Shown: positions 1,008 through 10,148 of the stretch, piece after piece
Layout of the letters: each line of letters begins with the position of its first letter
Position numbering within the stretch: the stretch's first letter is position 1
Virus record (IMG/VR): IMGVR_UViG_2711768074_000029
Location: 1 to 11,677 of that record
Direction: 5' to 3' (one strand)
DNA length: 11,677 nt
Origin: a virus
Lineage: Duplodnaviria; Heunggongvirae; Uroviricota; Caudoviricetes
Position numbers and translations under genes: made by a program
Notes under the pieces: model-generated
The model's input: the letters and a program-made list of their open reading frames with translations, nothing else
Database searches by the model: none
Told to the model about the DNA's origin: nothing

Positions 1008-1985
1008 TTAAGCACCTCCTAGCGGATTAAATCTCACCGCATCCTGCAAGTAATCCGGCGCAAGATGGGCATAAATCATTGTTGTCTGAATCTTTGCGTG
1101 CCCCAGAATTTTCTGGAGCGTCAGAATATTGCCGCCGTTCATCATGAAATGACTGGCGAAGGTGTGGCGCAGCGCATGAACAGCCTGGCCGTCAGGAACA
1201 TCAGGTGCGACCGTTTTGATGACATCGCGAACCAATGGATAATCCAGCGTCGGAAACACCAGTTTCCCGCCCCGTTTTTTGATCTTTTCAAACAAATCTT
1301 CGGAGATTGGGACGGTACGGTTTTTACTGTTCTTTGTTTTTGAAAAAGTGATTCGACAATGCAGAACGCGGCGTTGCTCCAGTGCCGCTACCTCGCCCCA
1401 TCGCGCCCCGGTCGATAAAAGGATTTCAACAGCCAGCCGCTCATCGGGATTTTCAGCCAGTGCATCCAGCAACTGAACACATTCAGACTTACTCAGATAT
1501 CCCATTTCGCGTTCGTTAACCTTCATTCCTTTCAGACCTTGAACGGGGTTATCGTTAAGGAAATGGCCGGAAGAGATGAGTGCACTAAACATCGCGCTTA
1601 ACGCCCCAATCTCTCGATTTATGGTGCTGGGCTGTATCCCCTGCTCTATCCTGGACACACGTAGCTCGGTGAGCATCGTTGTATTAAGTTTATGCACGCA
1701 CGGGTCATCCATTGCCTCACTCAAGCGCAGCAATTTAAGGCGCGTGTTATGCCCTGACTTCATTAGCTGGCCGTGGTATTTCCACCACAAGTCAATAAGC
1801 ACTGACAGCGGACGGCGATCAATGGAGTTTCCTTTCCACTCATTGTTATGCTGTTGTGCCAGCACCCACCGCTCATATAAAACTGCATCCGATTTCGTTT
1901 TAAATTTTTTGCGAATGCGTTTGCCTTTACGCCCCTCCGGGCGCATGTCAAGAAGATACCCTCCCGGAATTGATTTTATGCTCAT
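1008..1985 (-). CDS. int: Tyrosine integrase, P2 Int family
   Basis: Translation from MSIKSIPGGYLLDMRPEGRKGKRIRKKF matches the P2 Int N-terminus pattern. The catalytic region (GARWGE...HALRHTFASHFMMNGG...LGHAKIQTTMIYAHLAPDYLQDA) has the R..HxxR..Y signature. I take ATG 1985 as start rather than the ORF-track start at 2135, which would overlap C by 100 bp. Confidence 0.9.
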   Translation of the reverse strand: MSIKSIPGGYLLDMRPEGRKGKRIRKKFKTKSDAVLYERWVLAQQHNNEWKGNSIDRRPLSVLIDLWWKYHGQLMKSGHNTRLKLLRLSEAMDDPCVHKLNTTMLTELRVSRIEQGIQPSTINREIGALSAMFSALISSGHFLNDNPVQGLKGMKVNEREMGYLSKSECVQLLDALAENPDERLAVEILLSTGARWGEVAALEQRRVLHCRITFSKTKNSKNRTVPISEDLFEKIKKRGGKLVFPTLDYPLVRDVIKTVAPDVPDGQAVHALRHTFASHFMMNGGNILTLQKILGHAKIQTTMIYAHLAPDYLQDAVRFNPLGGA

Positions 1986-2034: not shown

Positions 2035-2346
2035 TTAGCCGGGCTGTGTGCCAGTCTTGCGGGGTTTTTGAGAAGGCGATGTGCTTTTTGGCCCATCAGG
2101 GGAGAGAGACGGACTGATCTGTCCTGCAGCCTCATTAGTTTTTCCTGTCATAAGCCATATTGTGTACTTTTCGAAATCTTTAGAATTAATTACGCGATCG
2201 ACAACACTTAAACCGACCTCTCTTTTACCACTCTCATAGTTCTTTATGGTTCCGAGGTTTATCCCGGTAACATCAGCAAACTCAGCTTGAGTTAACCCTT
2301 CACTCTTTCGTATCTCTTTCAGTTTTTTTTCATATCCACTTGACAT
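2035..2346 (-). CDS. C: Immunity repressor, P2 C-like (HTH)
   Basis: 103 aa. LTQAEFADVTGINLGTIKNYESG is an HTH, and the C-terminal YTIWLMTGK...AGQISPSL resembles P2 C (YTLWFMTNQ...SGQIAPAL, from memory). GGAG SD 6 nt before the ATG. Sits directly upstream of int on the same strand, as in P2. Confidence 0.8.
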   Translation of the reverse strand: MSSGYEKKLKEIRKSEGLTQAEFADVTGINLGTIKNYESGKREVGLSVVDRVINSKDFEKYTIWLMTGKTNEAAGQISPSLSPDGPKSTSPSQKPRKTGTQPG

Positions 2347-2437
2347 GGTGGTCTCCAGACGACTAAATTAATACTAAAGGTCGCCTAGTGACGACTTTTA
2401 GCAACAAATAACCACAGACAGAACAGGTTATCACATC
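2347..2437. promoter_or_regulatory. Divergent Pc/Pe-type immunity switch region with direct-repeat candidate operator half-sites
   Basis: 91 bp between the divergent C and cox-like genes. Direct repeats GACGACT at 2358-2364 and 2390-2396, 32 bp apart. Exact -35/-10 elements not confidently placed. Confidence 0.4.
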
Positions 2438-2722
2438 ATGGCAAAAGTCCTGAACACACACGAACAGGCAGACTTTGAGCGTTTGGCGGCGTTCTATCCA
2501 TACCGCGATGCGCATGGATTACCAATACTTGAAGAGAGTCTGAAGGATTACGCAAAGCGCACCAATCAAACTGTTAACGCAGTAAAAAGGCAGGCTGACA
2601 GAGCACTAATACCCATCAATCAGGGCGAAAAAGGTGGGAAGCGAACAGTAAATCTCTACGCGATTTTTCTGAAAACCATCAGGAACGCAGAGAAGTACGT
2701 TCAGATGACAGGACTTAATTGA
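2438..2722 (+). CDS. Cox-like excisionase / early regulator (first gene of early operon)
   Basis: 94 aa, in the position of P2 cox. The central segment YAKRTNQTVNAVKRQADRALIPINQ...GGKRTVNLYAIFL has the same HTH-then-basic-strand architecture as P2 Cox. Similarity judged by eye only. Confidence 0.5.
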   Translation: MAKVLNTHEQADFERLAAFYPYRDAHGLPILEESLKDYAKRTNQTVNAVKRQADRALIPINQGEKGGKRTVNLYAIFLKTIRNAEKYVQMTGLN

Positions 2723-2926
2723 ATGGTCAGCAACATCATCAACGCCATCTTGGCACTCGTGTTTATCGAAGTGGGCGTCGCAGCGATTTATCTGTTTCGC
2801 AAACTAACCGGACATGATGAGCGTTTTGTTGATCTCAGCATTGAGTTCATTGCCGCTTATACCAAAGGGCTTTTTCCGGCTGCCATTGGCTCGGTGCTTA
2901 TAGCGATTGTTCTCCGTTTATCATGA
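2723..2926 (+). CDS. Small hydrophobic (two TM-like segments) protein, 67 aa
   Basis: ATG immediately follows the cox-like stop. Hydrophobic stretches IINAILALVFIEVGVAAIYLF and AAIGSVLIAIVLRL. Confidence 0.5.
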   Translation: MVSNIINAILALVFIEVGVAAIYLFRKLTGHDERFVDLSIEFIAAYTKGLFPAAIGSVLIAIVLRLS

Positions 2927-2969
2927 AAAATCTCAGTAATTCATAATCATTGTAGCAAGGAGAGTCGTT

Positions 2970-3077
2970 ATGTGTGGACTGGATAAGATGGATCTTTTCT
3001 TAATCATAACACTATCAGTTAACTTTGGGGTTTTATTGGGCCTTGCGGTTGTCATGCAGGGGTATAAACGAAAATGA
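2970..3077 (+). CDS. Possible 35-aa membrane peptide
   Basis: AGGAG (2958-2962) 7 nt before ATG 2970. Translation MCGLDKMDLFLIITLSVNFGVLLGLAVVMQGYKRK. Too short to verify. Confidence 0.25.
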   Translation: MCGLDKMDLFLIITLSVNFGVLLGLAVVMQGYKRK

Positions 3078-3163
3078 ATAAGCAGAAGAAAAACAGCGAA
3101 CCCCGTTACACGAGGTTTCGCCGTAAGTACTTTGAAAATGGTCGTTATGCAGGAAAAGTTAAA

Positions 3164-3400
3164 TCAGTGTCTACGATTCGGCATTACAGCCCCGACCAAT
3201 TCAGCTTTAACAATATATTCCTGCAAGAATGCAACGAGGTCTTTTGCTTGCTCAAGAGTTAAACCAGTGAATAGCTCACCAGCCTCAGGAAGTTTTGCAT
3301 TATTGGCTAAATGATAGTGGAAACGTAAACAGGCAAGATTGTTTGCAGTAACACATTCAAGCCCAGCAGGAATATAGATAGGTACTTCTTTTTGGGACAT
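3164..3400 (-). CDS. Small antisense-oriented hypothetical protein (78 aa) inside the early-operon region
   Basis: Strong SD (AAGGAG, read on the minus strand) 8 nt before ATG at 3400. Translation MSQKEVPIYIPAGLECVTANNLACLRFHY...TLEQAKDLVAFLQEYIVKAELVGAVMPNRRH looks protein-like. Region is AT-rich relative to its neighbours. Confidence 0.4.
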   Translation of the reverse strand: MSQKEVPIYIPAGLECVTANNLACLRFHYHLANNAKLPEAGELFTGLTLEQAKDLVAFLQEYIVKAELVGAVMPNRRH

Positions 3401-3499
3401 ATTAATCTCCTTTCTGTTTGTGTGGAAACAACAGAATACCATGCGCCGGGCATGGCTAAAACCCGGCACCAATTCGTAACAGCGGCAGGATATTTTTGT

Positions 3500-3850
3500 A
3501 TGAAACAACGACGCAATTCTCCACAGCAGCGTTTCCGCAACGGTGCGGAACACCACGCTAACCGTTTCGCTACCAGTGCATCACGCAGCAACATCCGCTA
3601 CAGCCTGAGTGATACACACGCAACGCCGGATGGCTACCCAGTAAAACAAATCGGCGAGCACGCCTGGCTGATTGAGAAAGCTGGAATCGTGATCCACAAA
3701 TGCCCACGCAATCCGTTTACCGGAAACCGCATTTTTGCATTGAGCTGTGGCGACAATCAGTTCGGGCAGGATTTCACATTATACGAAGCACTTCGCACGG
3801 TTGATCGTCTGCTTCGCGGGCAAAGTTTTATTAAACAGGCTGATTTATAA
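3500..3850 (+). CDS. Hypothetical early protein (116 aa from ATG 3500; alternative starts 3452 or 3392)
   Basis: ORF 3392..3850. ATG 3500 has AGGA 9 nt upstream and avoids overlapping the minus-strand gene. No family recognised. Confidence 0.5.
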   Translation: MKQRRNSPQQRFRNGAEHHANRFATSASRSNIRYSLSDTHATPDGYPVKQIGEHAWLIEKAGIVIHKCPRNPFTGNRIFALSCGDNQFGQDFTLYEALRTVDRLLRGQSFIKQADL

Positions 3851-5361: not shown

Positions 5362-5483
5362 GAAACCAGAACATGCACACACAAAAAAACCGCTTGCCAT
5401 GCCGCAATCAGTCAGGTTACATTTCCGCTGCACCTCACAAAACGGGTGTCGGGTTTCGCAGCCTGCTGACTACACAAGCGCAC

Positions 5484-5504
5484 AACCGCGCCAGCGGTTT
5501 TTTT
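5484..5504 (+). terminator. Intrinsic terminator-like hairpin within the early region
   Basis: Stem aaccgc (5484-5489), loop gcca, gcggtt (5494-5499), followed by a 7-T run to 5504. Confidence 0.45.
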
Positions 5505-5683
5505 GTGCGTACTGTATTGCCACGTTTTTTTCGCGTCAGAATTATGGCGGGGCGTACGGGGCCGACTTCGGTCGGGCCGGGTTCTTGTGTAGCCGGTACT
5601 GCGAACCTCGTACGTCTCGCCACCCACAGTTTCGCAGCTCTGGATGGTGAGTTTTCACAACTTACTACACAAGGGGCCACACC

Positions 5684-5860
5684 ATGGCAAACCGCAGACT
5701 TTCCCGCGCATCACGCGTCGCGCAAATCATGCACATCAATATGCTGCATGAGCGCAGCCACGCACTATCAAACATTTATTCCGCCTCTGTTTTCAGCTAT
5801 CTGGCGGATGATCTGCACGAGCTTCAACAGCTCATCCAGCAGCAAAACAAACTCCATTAA
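5684..5860 (+). CDS. Small hypothetical protein, 58 aa (below the ORF-track cutoff)
   Basis: AAGGGG (5671-5676) 7 nt before ATG 5684; stop TAA 5858-5860. Translation MANRRLSRASRVAQIMHINMLHERSHALSNIYSASVFSYLADDLHELQQLIQQQNKLH. Confidence 0.45.
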   Translation: MANRRLSRASRVAQIMHINMLHERSHALSNIYSASVFSYLADDLHELQQLIQQQNKLH

Positions 5861-5932
5861 TTCCTGTTCCGGGCCTTTCCTGCACCTTGCGGCGGGAGGC
5901 CTTCGCACATCTGTAACAAGAGGATTGCCGCA

Positions 5933-6298
5933 ATGATTCTCGCCAACGACTTTCTTGAATACCTGCTCAACACAGAACGTGATCTTGCCGCTCGCGTGCG
6001 TGATCGTTATGACATGTACCAGAAATCCCTGCCTGTACCGCAGCTCGCTGACGGAAAGATTGTTATTGATGGTCGCTACATGATTGACAGCCACGAGGGA
6101 AATTACAGGCTTTACCGCATTGAAGGTGGCACCCCGTCCGTTATTGGCATTTACCAGCGCCCATCCTCTGCAATCGTCGATGTGATTGCCGACAGCATCC
6201 GCATCACACATCGCCATGCCGACACAGAAGACACCGTGCTGGAAATTCAGCGGCTGGCTGCCGTCTGCCGCGACACCCTGAATGGCATGACGAAGTAA
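5933..6298 (+). CDS. Hypothetical protein immediately upstream of gpA, 121 aa
   Basis: AAGAGGA (5918-5924) 8 nt before ATG 5933. Stop lies 6 nt before the gpA start. Confidence 0.6.
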   Translation: MILANDFLEYLLNTERDLAARVRDRYDMYQKSLPVPQLADGKIVIDGRYMIDSHEGNYRLYRIEGGTPSVIGIYQRPSSAIVDVIADSIRITHRHADTEDTVLEIQRLAAVCRDTLNGMTK

Positions 6299-6304
6299 AT
6301 CACT

Positions 6305-9112
6305 ATGACGGCAGAGTACATCAGGGACTGGCAACAACCGCGCCACGCAGTGGGGCGTGAAGGAACGGGGATCCCCGTTCCTGAATCCGCGCTTTCCTCC
6401 TGGCTGGATGCCTACCGGGCAGAGAACGAGCGCCGCCAGGAAATGGCTGATGCGGCGTTCTCCGCCACGCCGCTGGGCAACCTGATTAATAAAAGCCTGG
6501 ACGCACAGGAAAAACAGGACAAAACCATCACACTGGCAGGAGACGCCAGAAAACAGGCACGCGGCGCGGTGGATGAAGCCATGGCCTCGCTGCGCCTGCT
6601 GCCGTCCTATCTGCGCGATCCGCTTATTCGCCACCTCTCCTTCCTGCGCAAAAAACAGGAAGCCGATCGCCGGAAAGGCAAAAAGAGCTGGCAGGCTGAA
6701 CGCTACGCGCGCGGAACCCTGCGCAAAATATTCGAACGTCTGGACCGCACCGACCACCGCTGGCTGACACCGGGTTATCGCTCCCTTGCCGGACGCGAAC
6801 GCCTGGATGATTTGCTTTACCTGCCGCAGCTCAACCAGCACCAGATACAGACGCTGGCCACCATGACGGCGGCGATGTTCAGCAGCACCTTCGAAAAACT
6901 CTGCGATGGCTTTGGCGCGACCGATGGCGAACTGACCATGGATGTAACGCTGAAGGCGTATCAGATGCTGGCCCGCATGGCGTTACACCTGCACGCCATG
7001 CCGCCACATTACGAAGCTCTGAACAAGAGCGATCCGGATACGGAACTGTTACCGGGCGCAATCCTTCGCCTGACCTGTGCGGAATGGTGGAAACGCAAAC
7101 TGTGGCTGTTACGTTGCGAGTGGCGGGAAGAACAACTCCGCGCCGCCTGTCTGGTTTCCAGAAAAACATCACCCTATCTGAGCCAGGACGCGTTAAGCGA
7201 GTTTCGCGCACAGCGCGAGAAAACACGCGATTTCCTGAAAAGTTTCATGCTGGAAAACGAAGACGGGTTCACGATTGATCTCGAGACAGTGTATTACGCG
7301 GGAGTAAGTAACCCGGTTCACCGTAAGGCAGAAATGATGGCCACCATGAAGGGACTGGAACTTCTGGCCGAAGCCCGTGGCGACAAAGCGGTGTTTCTGA
7401 CCATCACCTGCCCGTCAAAATACCACGCCACAACAGAGAACGGTCATCCGAATCCCAAATGGAACGGGGCCACCATGCGCGACTCCAGCGATTACCTGGT
7501 TAACACGTTTTTTGCGGCGGTCCGCAAGAAACTGAACCGCGACGGCCTGCGCTGGTATGGCATCCGCACAGTGGAGCCTCACCATGACGGCACCGTGCAC
7601 TGGCATATGATGGTCTTTGCTCATCCGGAAGAAATCGACACCATTGTGTCCCACACCCGCGATATTGCCATTCAGGAAGATCGTCACGAGCTGGGTGATG
7701 ATATTACCCCACGCTTTAAGGCGGAGTACGTCGACGGCTCAAAAGGCACGCCAACCAGCTACATCGCCACCTACATCGGAAAGAACCTGGACAGCCGCGC
7801 CGTGGATGGTATCGACCCGAAAACGGGCAAGCCACGCGTTGACCACGAAACCGGAAAATCAATGGCCGAGAGCGTGGAGCGCGCCATCGGCTGGGCGCGC
7901 CTTCACCGGGTCCGCCAGTTCCAGTTCTTTGGCATCCCCTCCCGTCAGGTGTGGCGTGAACTGCGCCGCCTTGCCAGCCAGATGGCACGCAACCCGGAAG
8001 GCCCGCAACGGCTGAAGGATGACGCAATGGATGCAGTGCTCGCTGCCGCTGATGCCGGGTGTTTTGCCTCCTACATTGAAAAACAGGGCGGCGTACTTGT
8101 TCCACGCAAAGACTACCTGATTCGCACTGCCTACGACCTCGCAGATGAGCTGAACGATTACGGCGAACAGAGCGTACAGATTTACGGGATCTGGTCACCA
8201 CTCATCGGGGAGTCTTCCCGTGTGTGCACACATCCGGATAACTGGAAGCTGGTAAGACGTAAACCGGAAGCGGAAGACAGCGCCCGCGAAAATGGTTTTG
8301 ACCTTCAGGGCGGCCCTGCCGCCCCTTGGACTCGTGGCAATAACTGTCCCCGTGTACAGGAAACGGACAACAACGGGACAGAACAGCCGGAAGAACGGCC
8401 AGCACCGTGGCCGCAGCTCCCTGACGGCGTTGAAGTGAACGAATGGATGCGCTCACTGAAACGGCACGAACGCCGGACGCTGATGCGTTCGCTGCGTGAC
8501 AAGCAGGCAAAAAACAGCAGTGATGAAATGCAGAACTGGACACAGAGCCGCAAACAGCCACGGCCTTTGCCTGATAACCACGAATTACTCGCTAAAGAAT
8601 GGCGGGAATCTGCCGAATCTCTCGGCCTGTATATCGGTGAACAGCAGATGCAGCACCTGTTACGGGGCGGCAGCCTGTACGTTGACGGCAGCATCATTGC
8701 ACCACAGGGATTTGAAATTGTACGCAAACCGGATACCCGCCCGGACAGCCGAATCACGCAGCTCTGGCAGCACCTGAGCCGTAATCACGGCGTAAGCAGC
8801 ACGGAGATCCGCCATAACCCGGTCGCCAGCTATCTGGCACAGCTGGGGGCATCAGACCCCGAAGCCGCCGCACGTCTGGCATCCACACTTCAGCAGGACC
8901 AGAACACCATGAAAACCCCCGTTACCGTGCTTTCTGACATGCTGCGCGCCATCCGTGACGCAGAGCACGCACAGAGAATCAGTGAAACAACTGAACGCGC
9001 CCGCCGCAAAGCAGACCTGCTGCGGGGTGGCCTGACCAGTAGAAACAAAAAACAGACAGAAACGGGATTCACAAATCCCGTAAATGAGCAAAAAACGCGC
9101 CGCGATATATGA
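6305..9112 (+). CDS. A: Rolling-circle replication initiator (replication endonuclease), P2 gpA family
   Basis: 935 aa. HUH motif RTVEPHHDGTVHWHMMVF (about 7570-7620) and catalytic tyrosine pair SYIATYIGKN (about 7760-7790) match P2 gpA (RVVEPHHDGTPHWHMMVF; GYIAKYISKN, from memory). The N-terminal PRHAVGRE also matches. Confidence 0.92.
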   Translation: MTAEYIRDWQQPRHAVGREGTGIPVPESALSSWLDAYRAENERRQEMADAAFSATPLGNLINKSLDAQEKQDKTITLAGDARKQARGAVDEAMASLRLLPSYLRDPLIRHLSFLRKKQEADRRKGKKSWQAERYARGTLRKIFERLDRTDHRWLTPGYRSLAGRERLDDLLYLPQLNQHQIQTLATMTAAMFSSTFEKLCDGFGATDGELTMDVTLKAYQMLARMALHLHAMPPHYEALNKSDPDTELLPGAILRLTCAEWWKRKLWLLRCEWREEQLRAACLVSRKTSPYLSQDALSEFRAQREKTRDFLKSFMLENEDGFTIDLETVYYAGVSNPVHRKAEMMATMKGLELLAEARGDKAVFLTITCPSKYHATTENGHPNPKWNGATMRDSSDYLVNTFFAAVRKKLNRDGLRWYGIRTVEPHHDGTVHWHMMVFAHPEEIDTIVSHTRDIAIQEDRHELGDDITPRFKAEYVDGSKGTPTSYIATYIGKNLDSRAVDGIDPKTGKPRVDHETGKSMAESVERAIGWARLHRVRQFQFFGIPSRQVWRELRRLASQMARNPEGPQRLKDDAMDAVLAAADAGCFASYIEKQGGVLVPRKDYLIRTAYDLADELNDYGEQSVQIYGIWSPLIGESSRVCTHPDNWKLVRRKPEAEDSARENGFDLQGGPAAPWTRGNNCPRVQETDNNGTEQPEERPAPWPQLPDGVEVNEWMRSLKRHERRTLMRSLRDKQAKNSSDEMQNWTQSRKQPRPLPDNHELLAKEWRESAESLGLYIGEQQMQHLLRGGSLYVDGSIIAPQGFEIVRKPDTRPDSRITQLWQHLSRNHGVSSTEIRHNPVASYLAQLGASDPEAAARLASTLQQDQNTMKTPVTVLSDMLRAIRDAEHAQRISETTERARRKADLLRGGLTSRNKKQTETGFTNPVNEQKTRRDI

Positions 9113-9188: not shown

Positions 9189-10148
9189 ATGAAAATTTGT
9201 ATCGACGACGGCTCCACCAACATCAAGCTGGCATGGACTGAGAACGGCGAACGCCGCAACGCCATCAGCCCGAACAGCTTCAAGTCGGAATGGTCTGCGC
9301 CGTTCGGTGGCACGCAGCCCGCGAACTACATGCTTGATGGCGTGCGCTATGGTTTTGATCCGGTCAGCGATCGCTTTGTCCAGACGACCGACACGCAATA
9401 CCAGTACAGCGATGTGAATGTAATCGCCATTCACCACGCGCTGGTCAAATCAGGCATCACACCACAGGAAGTGGATGTGGTTGTTACCCTGCCACTGAGC
9501 GAGTATTTCGACACAAACGCACAGCCGGACATGGCCAACATCAACCGCAAAAAAGCGAACGTTATGCGCCCGGTGGAGTACCAGAACGGCGAGGCATTCA
9601 CTATCCGTAACGTGCGGGTTATGCCTGAATCCATTCCGGCTGGCTTTAAAGCACTGGCTGACATGAGTCCGTTTGAATCCCTGCTGATTGTGGATTTGGG
9701 CGGAACCACGCTGGATGTGGCAAAGGTTCAGGGGCAACTGGCAGGTATCAGCCAGGTGTTTTGCGATCCACACGTAGGCGTTTCTCTGATGGCCGATGCC
9801 GTACTGTCGGTGATGGCCACTAACGGTATGCGCACCAGTCACCACATCGCCAATACCATTATCGAACGTCGCCATAATGAAGCCTGGCTGCGCCAGCACA
9901 TCCACAATGACGCGCATTACGCCAGCCTGATGGCGGTTATTCGTGAAAAGGAAGAAACACTGAAACAACGCGTGATCCGCGCGCTGGCGGTTTTTTCGGG
10001 TTACGGGCGGGTGATGGTTGTCGGTGGCGGGGCGGAGATTGTGGCACCCGCTATCCGCGAAGCCTGCGGAGTTAATGCGACTTTCATCGCGGACGGGGTG
10101 CCACAGTTTGCTCTGGTTAATGGGCTGTACGCAATGGACAAGGAGTAA
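9189..10148 (+). CDS. parM: Actin-like segregation ATPase, ParM/StbA family
   Basis: 319 aa. N-terminus MKICIDDGSTNIKLAW matches R1 ParM (MLVFIDDGSTNIKLQW). Further matches: YSDVNVIAIHHAL, NVRVMPESIPAGF, LLIVDLGGTTLD, VMVVGGGAE and the C-terminal LVNGLY. AAGGA SD 8 nt upstream. Confidence 0.9.
   Translation: MKICIDDGSTNIKLAWTENGERRNAISPNSFKSEWSAPFGGTQPANYMLDGVRYGFDPVSDRFVQTTDTQYQYSDVNVIAIHHALVKSGITPQEVDVVVTLPLSEYFDTNAQPDMANINRKKANVMRPVEYQNGEAFTIRNVRVMPESIPAGFKALADMSPFESLLIVDLGGTTLDVAKVQGQLAGISQVFCDPHVGVSLMADAVLSVMATNGMRTSHHIANTIIERRHNEAWLRQHIHNDAHYASLMAVIREKEETLKQRVIRALAVFSGYGRVMVVGGGAEIVAPAIREACGVNATFIADGVPQFALVNGLYAMDKE

What the first reader, a model, noticed from the sequence alone, without database searches (positions are those of the whole stretch)
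2927..3420. AT-rich insert in the early operon carrying a small gene in antisense orientation
Seen: between the cox-like module and the next plus-strand early gene the composition turns AT-rich. The best-supported ORF here is on the minus strand (3164..3400, strong SD, protein-like translation), convergent with early transcription. Overlapping plus-strand ORFs (3074..3262, 3132..3314) are less protein-like. Inference: a moron with its own promoter in the 3401-3499 gap, whose expression would collide with early-operon transcription. It is possibly expressed in the lysogen when Pe is repressed, which is the pattern expected of prophage-encoded host-benefit or exclusion genes.
Basis: partly seen in the sequence, partly recalled or inferred. 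Interest (0 to 1): 0.5.

Follow-up and report, generated by a model that had tools for sequence, protein, structure and literature searches.

The report
Antisense accessory gene cassette in prophage
A real 78-residue gene sits backwards inside the early lytic operon of a P2-like E. coli prophage, and the structured leader in front of it also precedes phage lambda's exclusion gene sieB and at least 15 other small genes, so it appears to be one member of a swappable class of probably prophage-expressed accessory genes.

Summary
Window 2927-3420 is AT-rich (39.5% GC against 50.6% for the window), and the minus-strand ORF 3164-3400 is a genuine gene, called orf78 here. It has 24 distinct copies in Enterobacterales. 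Substitutions by codon position are 1000/665/2019, and all antisense frames are broken by stops in the homologs.

The interval is two modules, not one insert. Plus-strand early genes orf67, orf35 and orfX occupy 2723-3163 and are common in relatives. The orf78 cassette occupies about 3164-3475 and is rare (12 of 5426 E. coli genomes). It differs by 2-3% from a prophage whose flanks differ by 13-24%.

In about 40 loci orf78 lies on the integrase/repressor strand of a P2/186-like early region, tail-to-tail with orfX. ORF 3132-3314 is spurious. ORF 3074-3262 is a real 30-codon gene that reads through into the cassette.

The 70-nt leader (3401-3470) carries an invariant TGnTAnnnT and three covarying stems. 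A covariance model built only from orf78 leaders finds the same leader before at least 15 unrelated small ORFs and upstream of lambda sieB (E = 7e-6), always antisense to early operons.

Best reading: a sieB-type antisense moron. Promoter activity, expression in the lysogen and protein function are not shown.

The parts
2723..2926 (+). orf67, a 67-aa membrane protein and early-operon backbone gene. It is part of the common module, not of the orf78 cassette.
   Evidence: PHROG 14475, E = 1.8e-29. About 75% DNA identity in roughly 350 E. coli genomes. 77-78% amino-acid identity in L006 and L007.
SD AAGGAG lies upstream, and its stop overlaps the orfX start (ATGA).
   Evidence: Sequence. 61-64% amino-acid identity, with the same ATGA junction, in L006 and L007. 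Absent from L047, where orfX directly follows orf67.
3074..3163 (+). orfX, the conserved part (30 codons) of a small basic early protein with motif [FY]-R-[RK]-x-Y-[FS]-x-x-G.
   Evidence: The stand-alone form is 35 aa in L006. The motif ORF is found tail-to-tail with orf78 in 14 diverse loci, mostly with good SDs. 13% divergence from L047, the same as the backbone.
3164..3262 (+). Read-through extension of orfX into the antisense of orf78 (99-nt overlap). Probably not selected in this lineage.
   Evidence: The junction lies exactly at the orf78 stop. The window uses a different frame from most loci. The most variable positions fall on orfX codon position 1.
3164..3400 (-). orf78, a 78-aa protein-coding gene and the cargo of the cassette.
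   Evidence: 13 protein clusters at 56-74% identity. 22 of 24 distinct copies are intact. Substitutions by codon position are 1000/665/2019. Antisense frames carry stops in all but one frame of one copy, L012. AF2 model is three strands then one long helix, pLDDT 72.
3407..3412 (-). Shine-Dalgarno AAGGAG of orf78.
   Evidence: Sequence. Conserved as AGGA/GGAG in the leaders.
3414..3434 (-). Hairpin C (CTGTT..AACAG plus an inner stem). Its 3' arm abuts the SD.
   Evidence: Compensatory changes. In alignment A11, 6 of its 7 pairs change on both sides. Replaced by non-homologous 8-10 bp hairpins in the long-class leaders.
3433..3441 (-). TGGTATTCT, an extended -10-like element and candidate promoter of orf78.
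   Evidence: TGnTAnnnT occurs exactly once in 24 of 24 distinct leaders, against 3.07 expected from shuffles. Not flagged by the two-hexamer scan.
3439..3455 (-). Stem B (CCATG/CATGG), followed by a U-rich stretch and flagged as terminator-like.
   Evidence: T:A to C:G covariation.
3445..3467 (-). Stem A (GCCGGG/CCCGGC), mutually exclusive with stem B.
   Evidence: Compensatory variants GCCGAG/CTCGGC (L042) and CCGAT/ATCGG (L011). Unique in the window.
3099..3117 (-). Terminator-like hairpin 46 nt downstream of the orf78 stop, inside orfX. Weak evidence.
   Evidence: Similar hairpins lie 30-90 nt downstream in 8 of 15 loci. This one is disrupted by 4 substitutions in L047.
3500..3850 (+). DUF4761 early gene, the first backbone gene to the right of the cassette. 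Its probable start is ATG 3500, not TTG 3392.
   Evidence: Pfam PF15958, E = 1.9e-68. Alignment with the L002 and L006 homologs.

Best explanation
Window 3164-3475 is a self-contained accessory-gene cassette (a moron) inserted backwards into the early lytic operon of a P2-like prophage integrated next to btuC.

The cassette has two parts. The first is a 70-nt structured leader, homologous to the region upstream of sieB in lambda and Rac and to the leaders of at least 15 other small cargo genes. The second is orf78, a 78-residue soluble protein predicted to fold as three strands and one long helix.

Inferred mechanism:
1. The leader supplies a weak, -35-less extended -10 promoter (TGGTATTCT) and a strong ribosome-binding site.
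2. orf78 is therefore transcribed leftward on its own, head-on against the early promoter Pe.
3. While the C repressor keeps Pe off in the lysogen, orf78 can be made.
4. After induction, convergent transcription and pairing with the early transcript would shut it down. The early gene orfX overlaps its 3' end by 99 nt.

By analogy with sieB, the only characterised cargo of this leader, the protein most likely serves the lysogen, for example by excluding other phages or modulating the host. It is unlikely to serve lytic growth.

Shown here: coding status, purifying selection, accessory distribution, cassette exchange, constant antisense orientation, and leader homology with covariation.

Inferred only: promoter activity, expression in the lysogen, the interference mechanism, and the protein's function.
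For: Coding status:
- The family is 60-76% identical across genera.
- Third-position excess is 1000/665/2019.
- Antisense frames are interrupted by stops in nearly all homologs.

Accessory and mobile:
- 1401 E. coli genomes carry the related early region, but only 12 carry orf78.
- 2-3% divergence across 3164-3470 against 13-24% in the flanks, compared with L047.

Orientation and position:
- Always on the int/C strand, between int and gpA, at several different slots.

Leader:
- TGnTAnnnT is present in 24 of 24 leaders, against 3.07 expected.
- Covariation is 90-95% paired, with 0 of 500 shuffles reaching the observed value.
- Covariance model R1, built from orf78 leaders only, hits the leaders of other cargos at E = 1e-23 to 1e-7 and lambda sieB upstream at E = 7e-6. 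It gives no hit in controls L002, L003, L006, L007 and L008.
- Other cargos also sit antisense: in a P2-like prophage (L100), in lambdoid Nissle (L099) and in a Rac-like prophage (L101). Lambda sieB is on the strand opposite N and ral.

Other:
- Composition is 39.5-41% GC.
- Terminator-like hairpins lie downstream in about half of the loci.
Against: - There is no experimental evidence for a promoter, a transcript or a protein.
- The two-hexamer sigma-70 scan finds nothing in 3401-3499. The -35 position reads TTTTAG.
- The 5' arm of hairpin C overlaps the proposed -10. A transcript started there would lack the covarying hairpin, so either the promoter or the RNA-structure reading is incomplete.
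- G.U counts do not settle which strand folds.
- In lambda and Rac sieB the hexamer reads TGGTTCT or TGGTCTC.
- The window's downstream terminator-like hairpin is not conserved in L047.
- The protein has no hit in PADLOC, NCBIfam or PHROGs, and no homolog in 50,697 sequenced phage genomes. An exclusion function is only an analogy.
Confidence: 0.55

Rival explanations
1. The unit is mainly a regulatory antisense device. Leftward transcription from the leader, and the resulting RNA, would throttle the early operon by transcriptional interference or RNA pairing. Known parallels are lambda OOP against cII, or the face-to-face promoters of phage 186. On this reading the protein is secondary.
For: - Always antisense to the early operon.
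- Always overlaps the 3' end of orfX by 47-113 nt.
- The structured leader is conserved more strongly than the coding sequence.
- The same leader serves many different cargos, so the shared function could lie in the RNA or in the act of transcription.
Against: - Strong purifying selection acts on the orf78 protein across genera.
- Each cargo keeps a strong SD and an intact ORF.
- The cassette is absent from most related, presumably functional prophages, so it is not a core switch component.
Confidence: 0.15
2. Orf78 is a phage-borne BssS-like protein that changes host physiology, such as biofilm or signal uptake, to benefit the lysogen. It would not act on other phages.
For: - Sub-threshold PF13991 hits in 7 of 13 family members, best E = 0.004.
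- hhalign against E. coli BssS and against a BssS alignment gives E about 1e-3 over 51-57 columns.
- Same size, same order of strands then one long helix, and a shared C-terminal His.
- The E. coli bssS promoter region reads TTGGTATACTGAAG..CTTCAG. This is the same layout of hexamer plus overlapping inverted repeat.
Against: - The score of 17 bits is below Pfam's 27-bit cut-off.
- hhalign probability is only 18-19%.
- The fold searches do not agree. orf78 matches COMM domains, while the low-confidence BssS model matches generic beta-meanders.
- The molecular function of BssS is itself undefined.
Confidence: 0.2
3. orfX and orf78 form a two-gene antagonistic pair, like a toxin-antitoxin or abortive-infection system. 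The early-operon product and the antisense product would counteract each other.
For: - The tail-to-tail pairing is conserved in 14 diverse loci, although the pair sits at different places in the operon.
- orfX is small and basic with a conserved motif.
- Some orf78 copies are pseudogenes.
Against: - orfX occurs alone in about 350 E. coli genomes.
- Other cargos of the same leader lack orfX, for example L100.
- Neither protein hits any PADLOC or Pfam toxin or antitoxin family.
- The recent exchange moved orf78 plus its leader without the orfX 5' part.
Confidence: 0.08
4. The real genes are on the plus strand (3074-3262 or 3132-3314), and the minus ORF is a chance open frame.
For: Both plus ORFs are open in the window. 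Some databases list the 62-aa product as a protein.
Against: - The 3132-3314 frame has 3-9 stops in every homolog.
- The extension of 3074-3262 uses different frames in different lineages.
- The minus frame is open in 22 of 24 copies and shows the expected codon-position pattern.
Confidence: 0.02

Closest known systems
sieB (superinfection exclusion B) of phage lambda and of the Rac prophage, with its upstream region
   Same: - Both are small accessory genes placed antisense inside an early operon (K-12 Rac).
- The upstream region has the same stems A, B and C. The orf78-derived covariance model finds it in lambda at E = 7e-6.
- In a Rac-like O157 prophage, a different 59-aa cargo with this leader occupies the sieB slot.
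   Different: - Orf78 got no SieB-family hit in the Pfam scan. Orf78 is 78 aa, while lambda sieB (34482-35036) encodes 184 aa.
- The host phage is P2-like, not lambdoid.
- Lambda and Rac sieB have about 45 extra nt before the ATG and lack the TA of the hexamer.
- Expression of sieB in lysogens is recalled from the literature (Ranade and Poteete 1993). That paper could not be read here.
Morons of temperate phages in the Hendrix/Juhala sense, such as lambda bor and lom or P2 old, tin and fun
   Same: Present or absent between close relatives, deviating base composition, a plausible own promoter, and sometimes a terminator.
   Different: - It lies inside the early operon rather than in the late region or at the genome ends, where the P2 morons sit according to established knowledge.
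- It uses a leader shared with many other cargos.
BssS / YceP (Pfam PF13991)
   Same: Similar length, weak profile similarity, the same order of secondary-structure elements, and a C-terminal His.
   Different: Below the family threshold. It is phage-borne, and the fold searches disagree.
COMM domain (COMMD proteins, including bacterial COMMD-like 9q6a)
   Different: No sequence similarity, and the model is of moderate confidence (pLDDT 72). The paper on prokaryotic COMMD-like proteins mentions neither phage nor BssS.

Membership tests
Moron (accessory transcription unit in a prophage) | Present in some phages and absent from close relatives | tested here: met
   Window 2711-3531 is replaced by about 40 nt in L002 and L003. 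orf78 is found in 12 of 5426 E. coli genomes, against 1401 that carry the related early region.
Moron (accessory transcription unit in a prophage) | Own promoter upstream | tested here: inconclusive
   TGnTAnnnT is invariant in 24 of 24 leaders. However, the two-hexamer scan finds no site, and the hexamer overlaps hairpin C.
Moron (accessory transcription unit in a prophage) | Terminator downstream | tested here: inconclusive
   A terminator-like hairpin lies at 3117-3099, but it is disrupted in L047. 8 of 15 loci have one within 30-90 nt.
Moron (accessory transcription unit in a prophage) | Base composition differs from the neighbours | tested here: met
   GC is 0.395-0.414, against 0.506 for the window.
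Moron (accessory transcription unit in a prophage) | Expressed from the repressed prophage | not testable with these tools
   This needs RNA or protein data from a lysogen.
sieB-type antisense cassette | Leader homologous to the region upstream of lambda sieB | tested here: met
   Alignment A10. Covariance model R1 hits L103 584-668 at 31 bits, E = 7e-6, with no hit in the controls. K-12 Rac sieB is recognisable by eye but fell below E = 1 with R1.
sieB-type antisense cassette | Gene antisense to the early operon | tested here: met
sieB-type antisense cassette | Protein homologous to SieB | tested here: not met
   The Pfam scan of orf78 returns only a weak BssS hit and no SieB-family hit.
BssS family (PF13991) | Score at or above Pfam's gathering threshold of 27 bits | tested here: not met
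   17.1 bits, E = 0.006. 7 of 13 members hit, all sub-threshold.
BssS family (PF13991) | Profile-profile or fold agreement | tested here: inconclusive
Known anti-phage defence or toxin-antitoxin proteins | Match to a PADLOC or Pfam toxin/antitoxin model | tested here: not met
   No hits for orf78, orfX, orf35 or orf67.
Known RNA family (Rfam 15) | Covariance-model match of the leader | tested here: not met
   No match at E up to 5 in 2300-3700.

The most novel reading that the evidence does not exclude
The 65-75-nt leader may be an undescribed, portable adaptor for antisense accessory genes in temperate phages of Enterobacterales.

One structured element precedes lambda and Rac sieB, orf78 and at least 15 other unrelated small ORFs in both P2-like and lambdoid prophages. 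It consists of two mutually exclusive GC stems, an invariant TGnTAnnnT, and a covarying hairpin that abuts the ribosome-binding site.

It could mark a cargo-swapping hotspot and control when these genes are made. For example, it might couple their expression inversely to early lytic transcription, or act in the early-sense transcript.

Within that frame, orfX and orf78 would be a conserved convergent pair with its own logic.
Probability: 0.4. Interest if true: 0.75.

Novelty: new member of a known kind. Interest (0 to 1): 0.55.

Why it matters
Prophage accessory genes that are expressed while the phage is silent often decide phage resistance, virulence or fitness of the host. They are hard to recognise when they are small and unannotated.

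This case provides a sequence signature for finding them: a structured leader that a covariance model can search for. It also reveals a new protein family (Orf78) and a new small early protein (orfX). It links a P2-like early-operon slot to the classical lambda sieB locus.

If the leader does control expression, one set of experiments on it would explain the regulation of a whole class of antisense prophage genes. That class includes one in the probiotic strain E. coli Nissle 1917.

Tried and rejected
Searches that returned nothing useful:
- PHROGs, NCBIfam and PADLOC gave nothing for orf78. Pfam and PHROGs gave nothing for orfX.
- tblastn against 50,697 phage genomes found no homolog.
- Rfam gave no match at E up to 5.
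- A sequence search of solved structures gave only a chance hit at E = 0.56.
- The AlphaFold database library was not available for fold search.
- The profile search of 1.84 billion proteins added only a few 72-82-aa relatives, plus repetitive long proteins that look like low-complexity matches.

Tests that did not confirm an idea:
- LexA box: the inverted repeat CTGT-N13-ACAG has the wrong spacing, judged from the sequence.
- H-type pseudoknot for stems A and B: rejected, because only 1 nt separates a' from b'.
- The leader as a repeated element within the window: it occurs only once.
- Codon-position test on the non-overlapping part of orfX: the sequences are too diverged to give a clear signal (1268/1331/1573).

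Literature:
- The paper that mapped the sieB promoter (PMID 8335629) is not held.
- Searches for tL1 with sieB and for KilS gave nothing usable.
- A BssS-plus-prophage search hit only the restriction enzyme Nb.BssSI.

Full report
CONTEXT

The window is the left end of a P2/186-like prophage. It contains:
- an integrase (about 1008-1985, minus strand);
- a C-type HTH repressor (2035-2346, minus strand; PHROG 147);
- a Cox-like gene (2438-2722, plus strand; PHROG 11533/575);
- a string of small plus-strand early genes;
- the replication endonuclease gpA (6305-9112; PF05840);
- a ParM gene.

Its closest relatives in complete E. coli genomes sit next to btuC. A promoter-like site at 2340-2369 and two direct repeats at 2347-2396 mark the C/cox switch region.

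THE OBSERVATION

- GC is 0.395 in 2927-3420, against 0.506 for the window and 0.44-0.51 for the neighbouring genes.
- The minus ORF 3164-3400 has AAGGAG 6 nt before its ATG.
- The plus ORFs 3074-3262 and 3132-3314 exist.
1401 of 5426 E. coli genomes carry the related early region, but only 2 carry the whole stretch. In typical relatives (L002, L003), cox is followed directly by the DUF4761 gene, and window 2711-3531 corresponds to about 40 nt.

TWO MODULES, NOT ONE

A sensitive search with 2711-3531 splits the stretch into two modules.
- Module 1, 2722-3085, is present at about 75% identity in roughly 350 genomes (for example L006 and L007).
- Module 2, 3116-3467, is present at about 76% identity in 10 further genomes (L004, L005).

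Module 1 is plus-strand backbone:
- orf67 (2723-2926; PHROG 14475);
- orfX, whose start overlaps the previous stop (ATGA at 3074-3077).

In L006 orfX is a 35-codon gene that ends 2 nt before the DUF4761 start. In the window the same gene runs on past codon 30 into the antisense of the minus ORF. The junction lies exactly at the minus ORF's stop codon.

WHICH STRAND CODES

The minus ORF (orf78) codes.
- It defines a family of 13 clusters at 56-74% identity in Escherichia, Rahnella, Yersinia, Serratia, Enterobacter and Citrobacter, and on genome contigs in Erwinia, Yokenella, Morganella, Trabulsiella and Photorhabdus.
- 29 columns are invariant.
- Among 24 distinct DNA copies, 22 are intact at 73-80 codons.
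- Substitutions by codon position in 11 ungapped copies are 1000/665/2019.
- All three antisense frames carry stops in the homologs, with a single exception (one frame of L012). The frame of 3132-3314 has 3-9 stops in every homolog.
- The extension of orfX uses different frames in different lineages.

POSITION AND ORIENTATION

In about 40 loci from E. coli genomes, species-representative genomes and IMG/VR, orf78 lies between int/C and gpA of a P2/186-like element. It is always on the int/C strand. The slot varies:
- between C and cox (L004 type);
- before DUF4761 (window, L025-27, L047);
- after a short DUF4761 homolog (L011, L013, L014).

In L004 the Pe-like promoter lies between C and orfX. 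There too, orf78 is antisense within the early transcript.

No sequenced phage genome in INPHARED has a homolog.

THE PARTNER orfX

In 14 diverse loci a small early-sense ORF converges on orf78 and overlaps its 3' end by 47-113 nt.
- It carries the motif [FY]-R-[RK]-x-Y-[FS]-x-x-G.
- Its N-terminal arm is 13-18 residues long.
- It usually has a good SD.

It matches no Pfam or PHROG family and is rarely annotated. Why the two genes travel together is unexplained.

CASSETTE EXCHANGE

A second prophage background (L047-L050, at dmsA, with a different C and cox and no orf35) carries the same cassette. Divergence from the window, by segment:
- 13% in 3074-3163;
- 16-24% to the right of 3471;
- 2-3% (7 of 307 positions) across 3164-3470.

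The unit that moved is therefore orf78 plus its 70-nt leader.

THE LEADER

The 70 nt upstream of the ATG are better conserved than the gene itself. On the orf78 strand the leader contains:
- stem A, GCCGGG (3467-3462) pairing with CCCGGC (3450-3445);
- stem B, CCATG (3455-3451) pairing with CATGG (3443-3439);
- TGGTATTCT (3441-3433);
- hairpin C (3434-3414);
- the SD.

Stems A and B exclude each other. All three stems show compensatory changes:
- My tally gives 100 of 114, 88 of 95 and 86 of 98 Watson-Crick cells.
- The tool count on alignment A4 gives 90% paired, with 0 of 500 shuffles reaching the observed covariation. Slid controls give 19-46%.

TGnTAnnnT occurs exactly once in each of 24 distinct leaders, against 3.07 expected from shuffles. 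In a 'long' class of leaders, non-homologous 8-10 bp hairpins follow it within 1-7 nt.

I read TGGTATTCT as an extended -10 element. Three things count against that reading:
- the two-hexamer scan flags nothing;
- the 5' arm of hairpin C overlaps the hexamer;
- G.U counts do not identify the folding strand.

The leader's function is therefore unresolved.

THE LEADER IS NOT SPECIFIC TO orf78

An exact-pattern scan of IMG/VR with the stem-B core returned 50 stretches.
- About 13 precede orf78.
- About 9 look like chance matches.
- The rest carry the whole leader in front of unrelated small ORFs.

Clustering gives 16 groups, at least 14 of which are true cargo families. Further cargos were seen, and sieB is an additional one.

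Covariance model R1 was built only from orf78 leaders. It finds these other leaders at E = 1e-23 to 1e-7 and gives no hit in five control loci. On the resulting alignment, 94.6% of cells pair, 8 of 12 pairs change on both sides, and 0 of 500 shuffles match. That alignment is fitted to the model, so the count leans towards the structure.

Contexts of the other cargos:
- P2-like prophages at the same slot and orientation (L066, L075, L082, L089, and L100 with a 64-aa cargo).
- Lambdoid prophages. In E. coli Nissle 1917 the leader precedes an unannotated 65-aa zinc-ribbon ORF with a strong terminator, antisense between rdgC and the repressor.
- A Rac-like O157 prophage, where a 59-aa cargo occupies the sieB slot.

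By blastn, 107 of 5426 E. coli genomes carry one leader subtype.

The region upstream of sieB in lambda (about 34393-34460) and in K-12 Rac shows the same three stems. R1 scores the lambda copy at E = 7e-6. Lambda sieB is on the strand opposite N, ral and ea10.

That sieB has its own promoter and is expressed in lysogens is my recollection of Ranade and Poteete (1993). That paper could not be read here.

THE PROTEIN

- Pfam gives only a sub-threshold BssS hit: 17 bits against a 27-bit cut-off, in 7 of 13 members.
- hhalign against BssS gives E about 1e-3 but a probability of 18-19%.
- Distant members and BssS share length and a C-terminal His.
- The BssS model is poor (pLDDT 63) and matches generic beta-meanders.

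I do not file Orf78 under BssS. The resemblance is a lead only.

VERDICT

Orf78 is one cargo of a sieB-type antisense cassette.
- Promoter activity, expression in the lysogen, the mechanism of interplay with early transcription, and the protein's function are all inferred.
- The most interesting by-product is the shared structured leader. I found no description of it in Rfam or in the papers I could search.

Noticed in passing
window 5430-5504 and 5540-5627: Rfam finds isrK (61.9 bits) and a C4 antisense RNA (83.2 bits) side by side. Both lie inside the 187-aa ORF 5373-5936, so that ORF is probably not a gene. Relatives annotate an 'ash family' pseudogene at this position.
   Followed up: no
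window 2340-2396: Two direct repeats, GGTGGTCTCCAGACGACT and GGTCGCCTAGTGACGACT, lie 32 nt apart in the C-cox gap. A TTGACA-18-TAAATT promoter-like site is also present. These are candidate C operators and the early promoter Pe.
   Followed up: partly
window 9189-10148: A complete ParM/StbA actin-like partition gene (PF06406 plus PF21523) lies directly after gpA. This is unusual cargo for an integrated P2-like prophage.
   Followed up: partly
L099 4480-4800 (E. coli Nissle 1917, NZ_CP007799.1, about 2073000-2073330): The leader is followed by an unannotated 65-aa zinc-ribbon ORF and a strong intrinsic terminator. RefSeq instead annotates an overlapping 121-aa ClpX-type zinc-finger gene on the other strand.
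   Followed up: partly
L102 2906-3125 (K-12 Rac, NC_000913.3 1418405-1418624): The annotated small RNA KilS begins about 55 nt beyond the sieB leader, on the early-sense strand. The leader may therefore mark a processing site or start site in the early transcript.
   Followed up: no
L001 4101-4452 compared with window 3500-3850: The DUF4761 gene is intact in the window. It is annotated as frameshifted in strain JP538, whose insert is 100% identical to the window's.
   Followed up: no
L013 6001-6216 and L014 6001-6236: The orf78 copies in Erwinia tracheiphila and Photorhabdus luminescens are disrupted, by an early stop and a frameshift respectively, although their leaders are retained.
   Followed up: partly
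L008 3016-3040 (E. coli K-12 bssS upstream): The bssS upstream region reads TTGGTATACTGAAGTTGCTTCAG. This is an extended -10-like hexamer whose last bases start an inverted repeat, the same layout as in the orf78 leader.
   Followed up: no
L056 7990-8170 and L077 7918-8007: Some lambdoid contigs carry two leader-plus-cargo cassettes in tandem, the second with a diverged leader (E = 0.003 and 3e-6 with model R1).
   Followed up: partly
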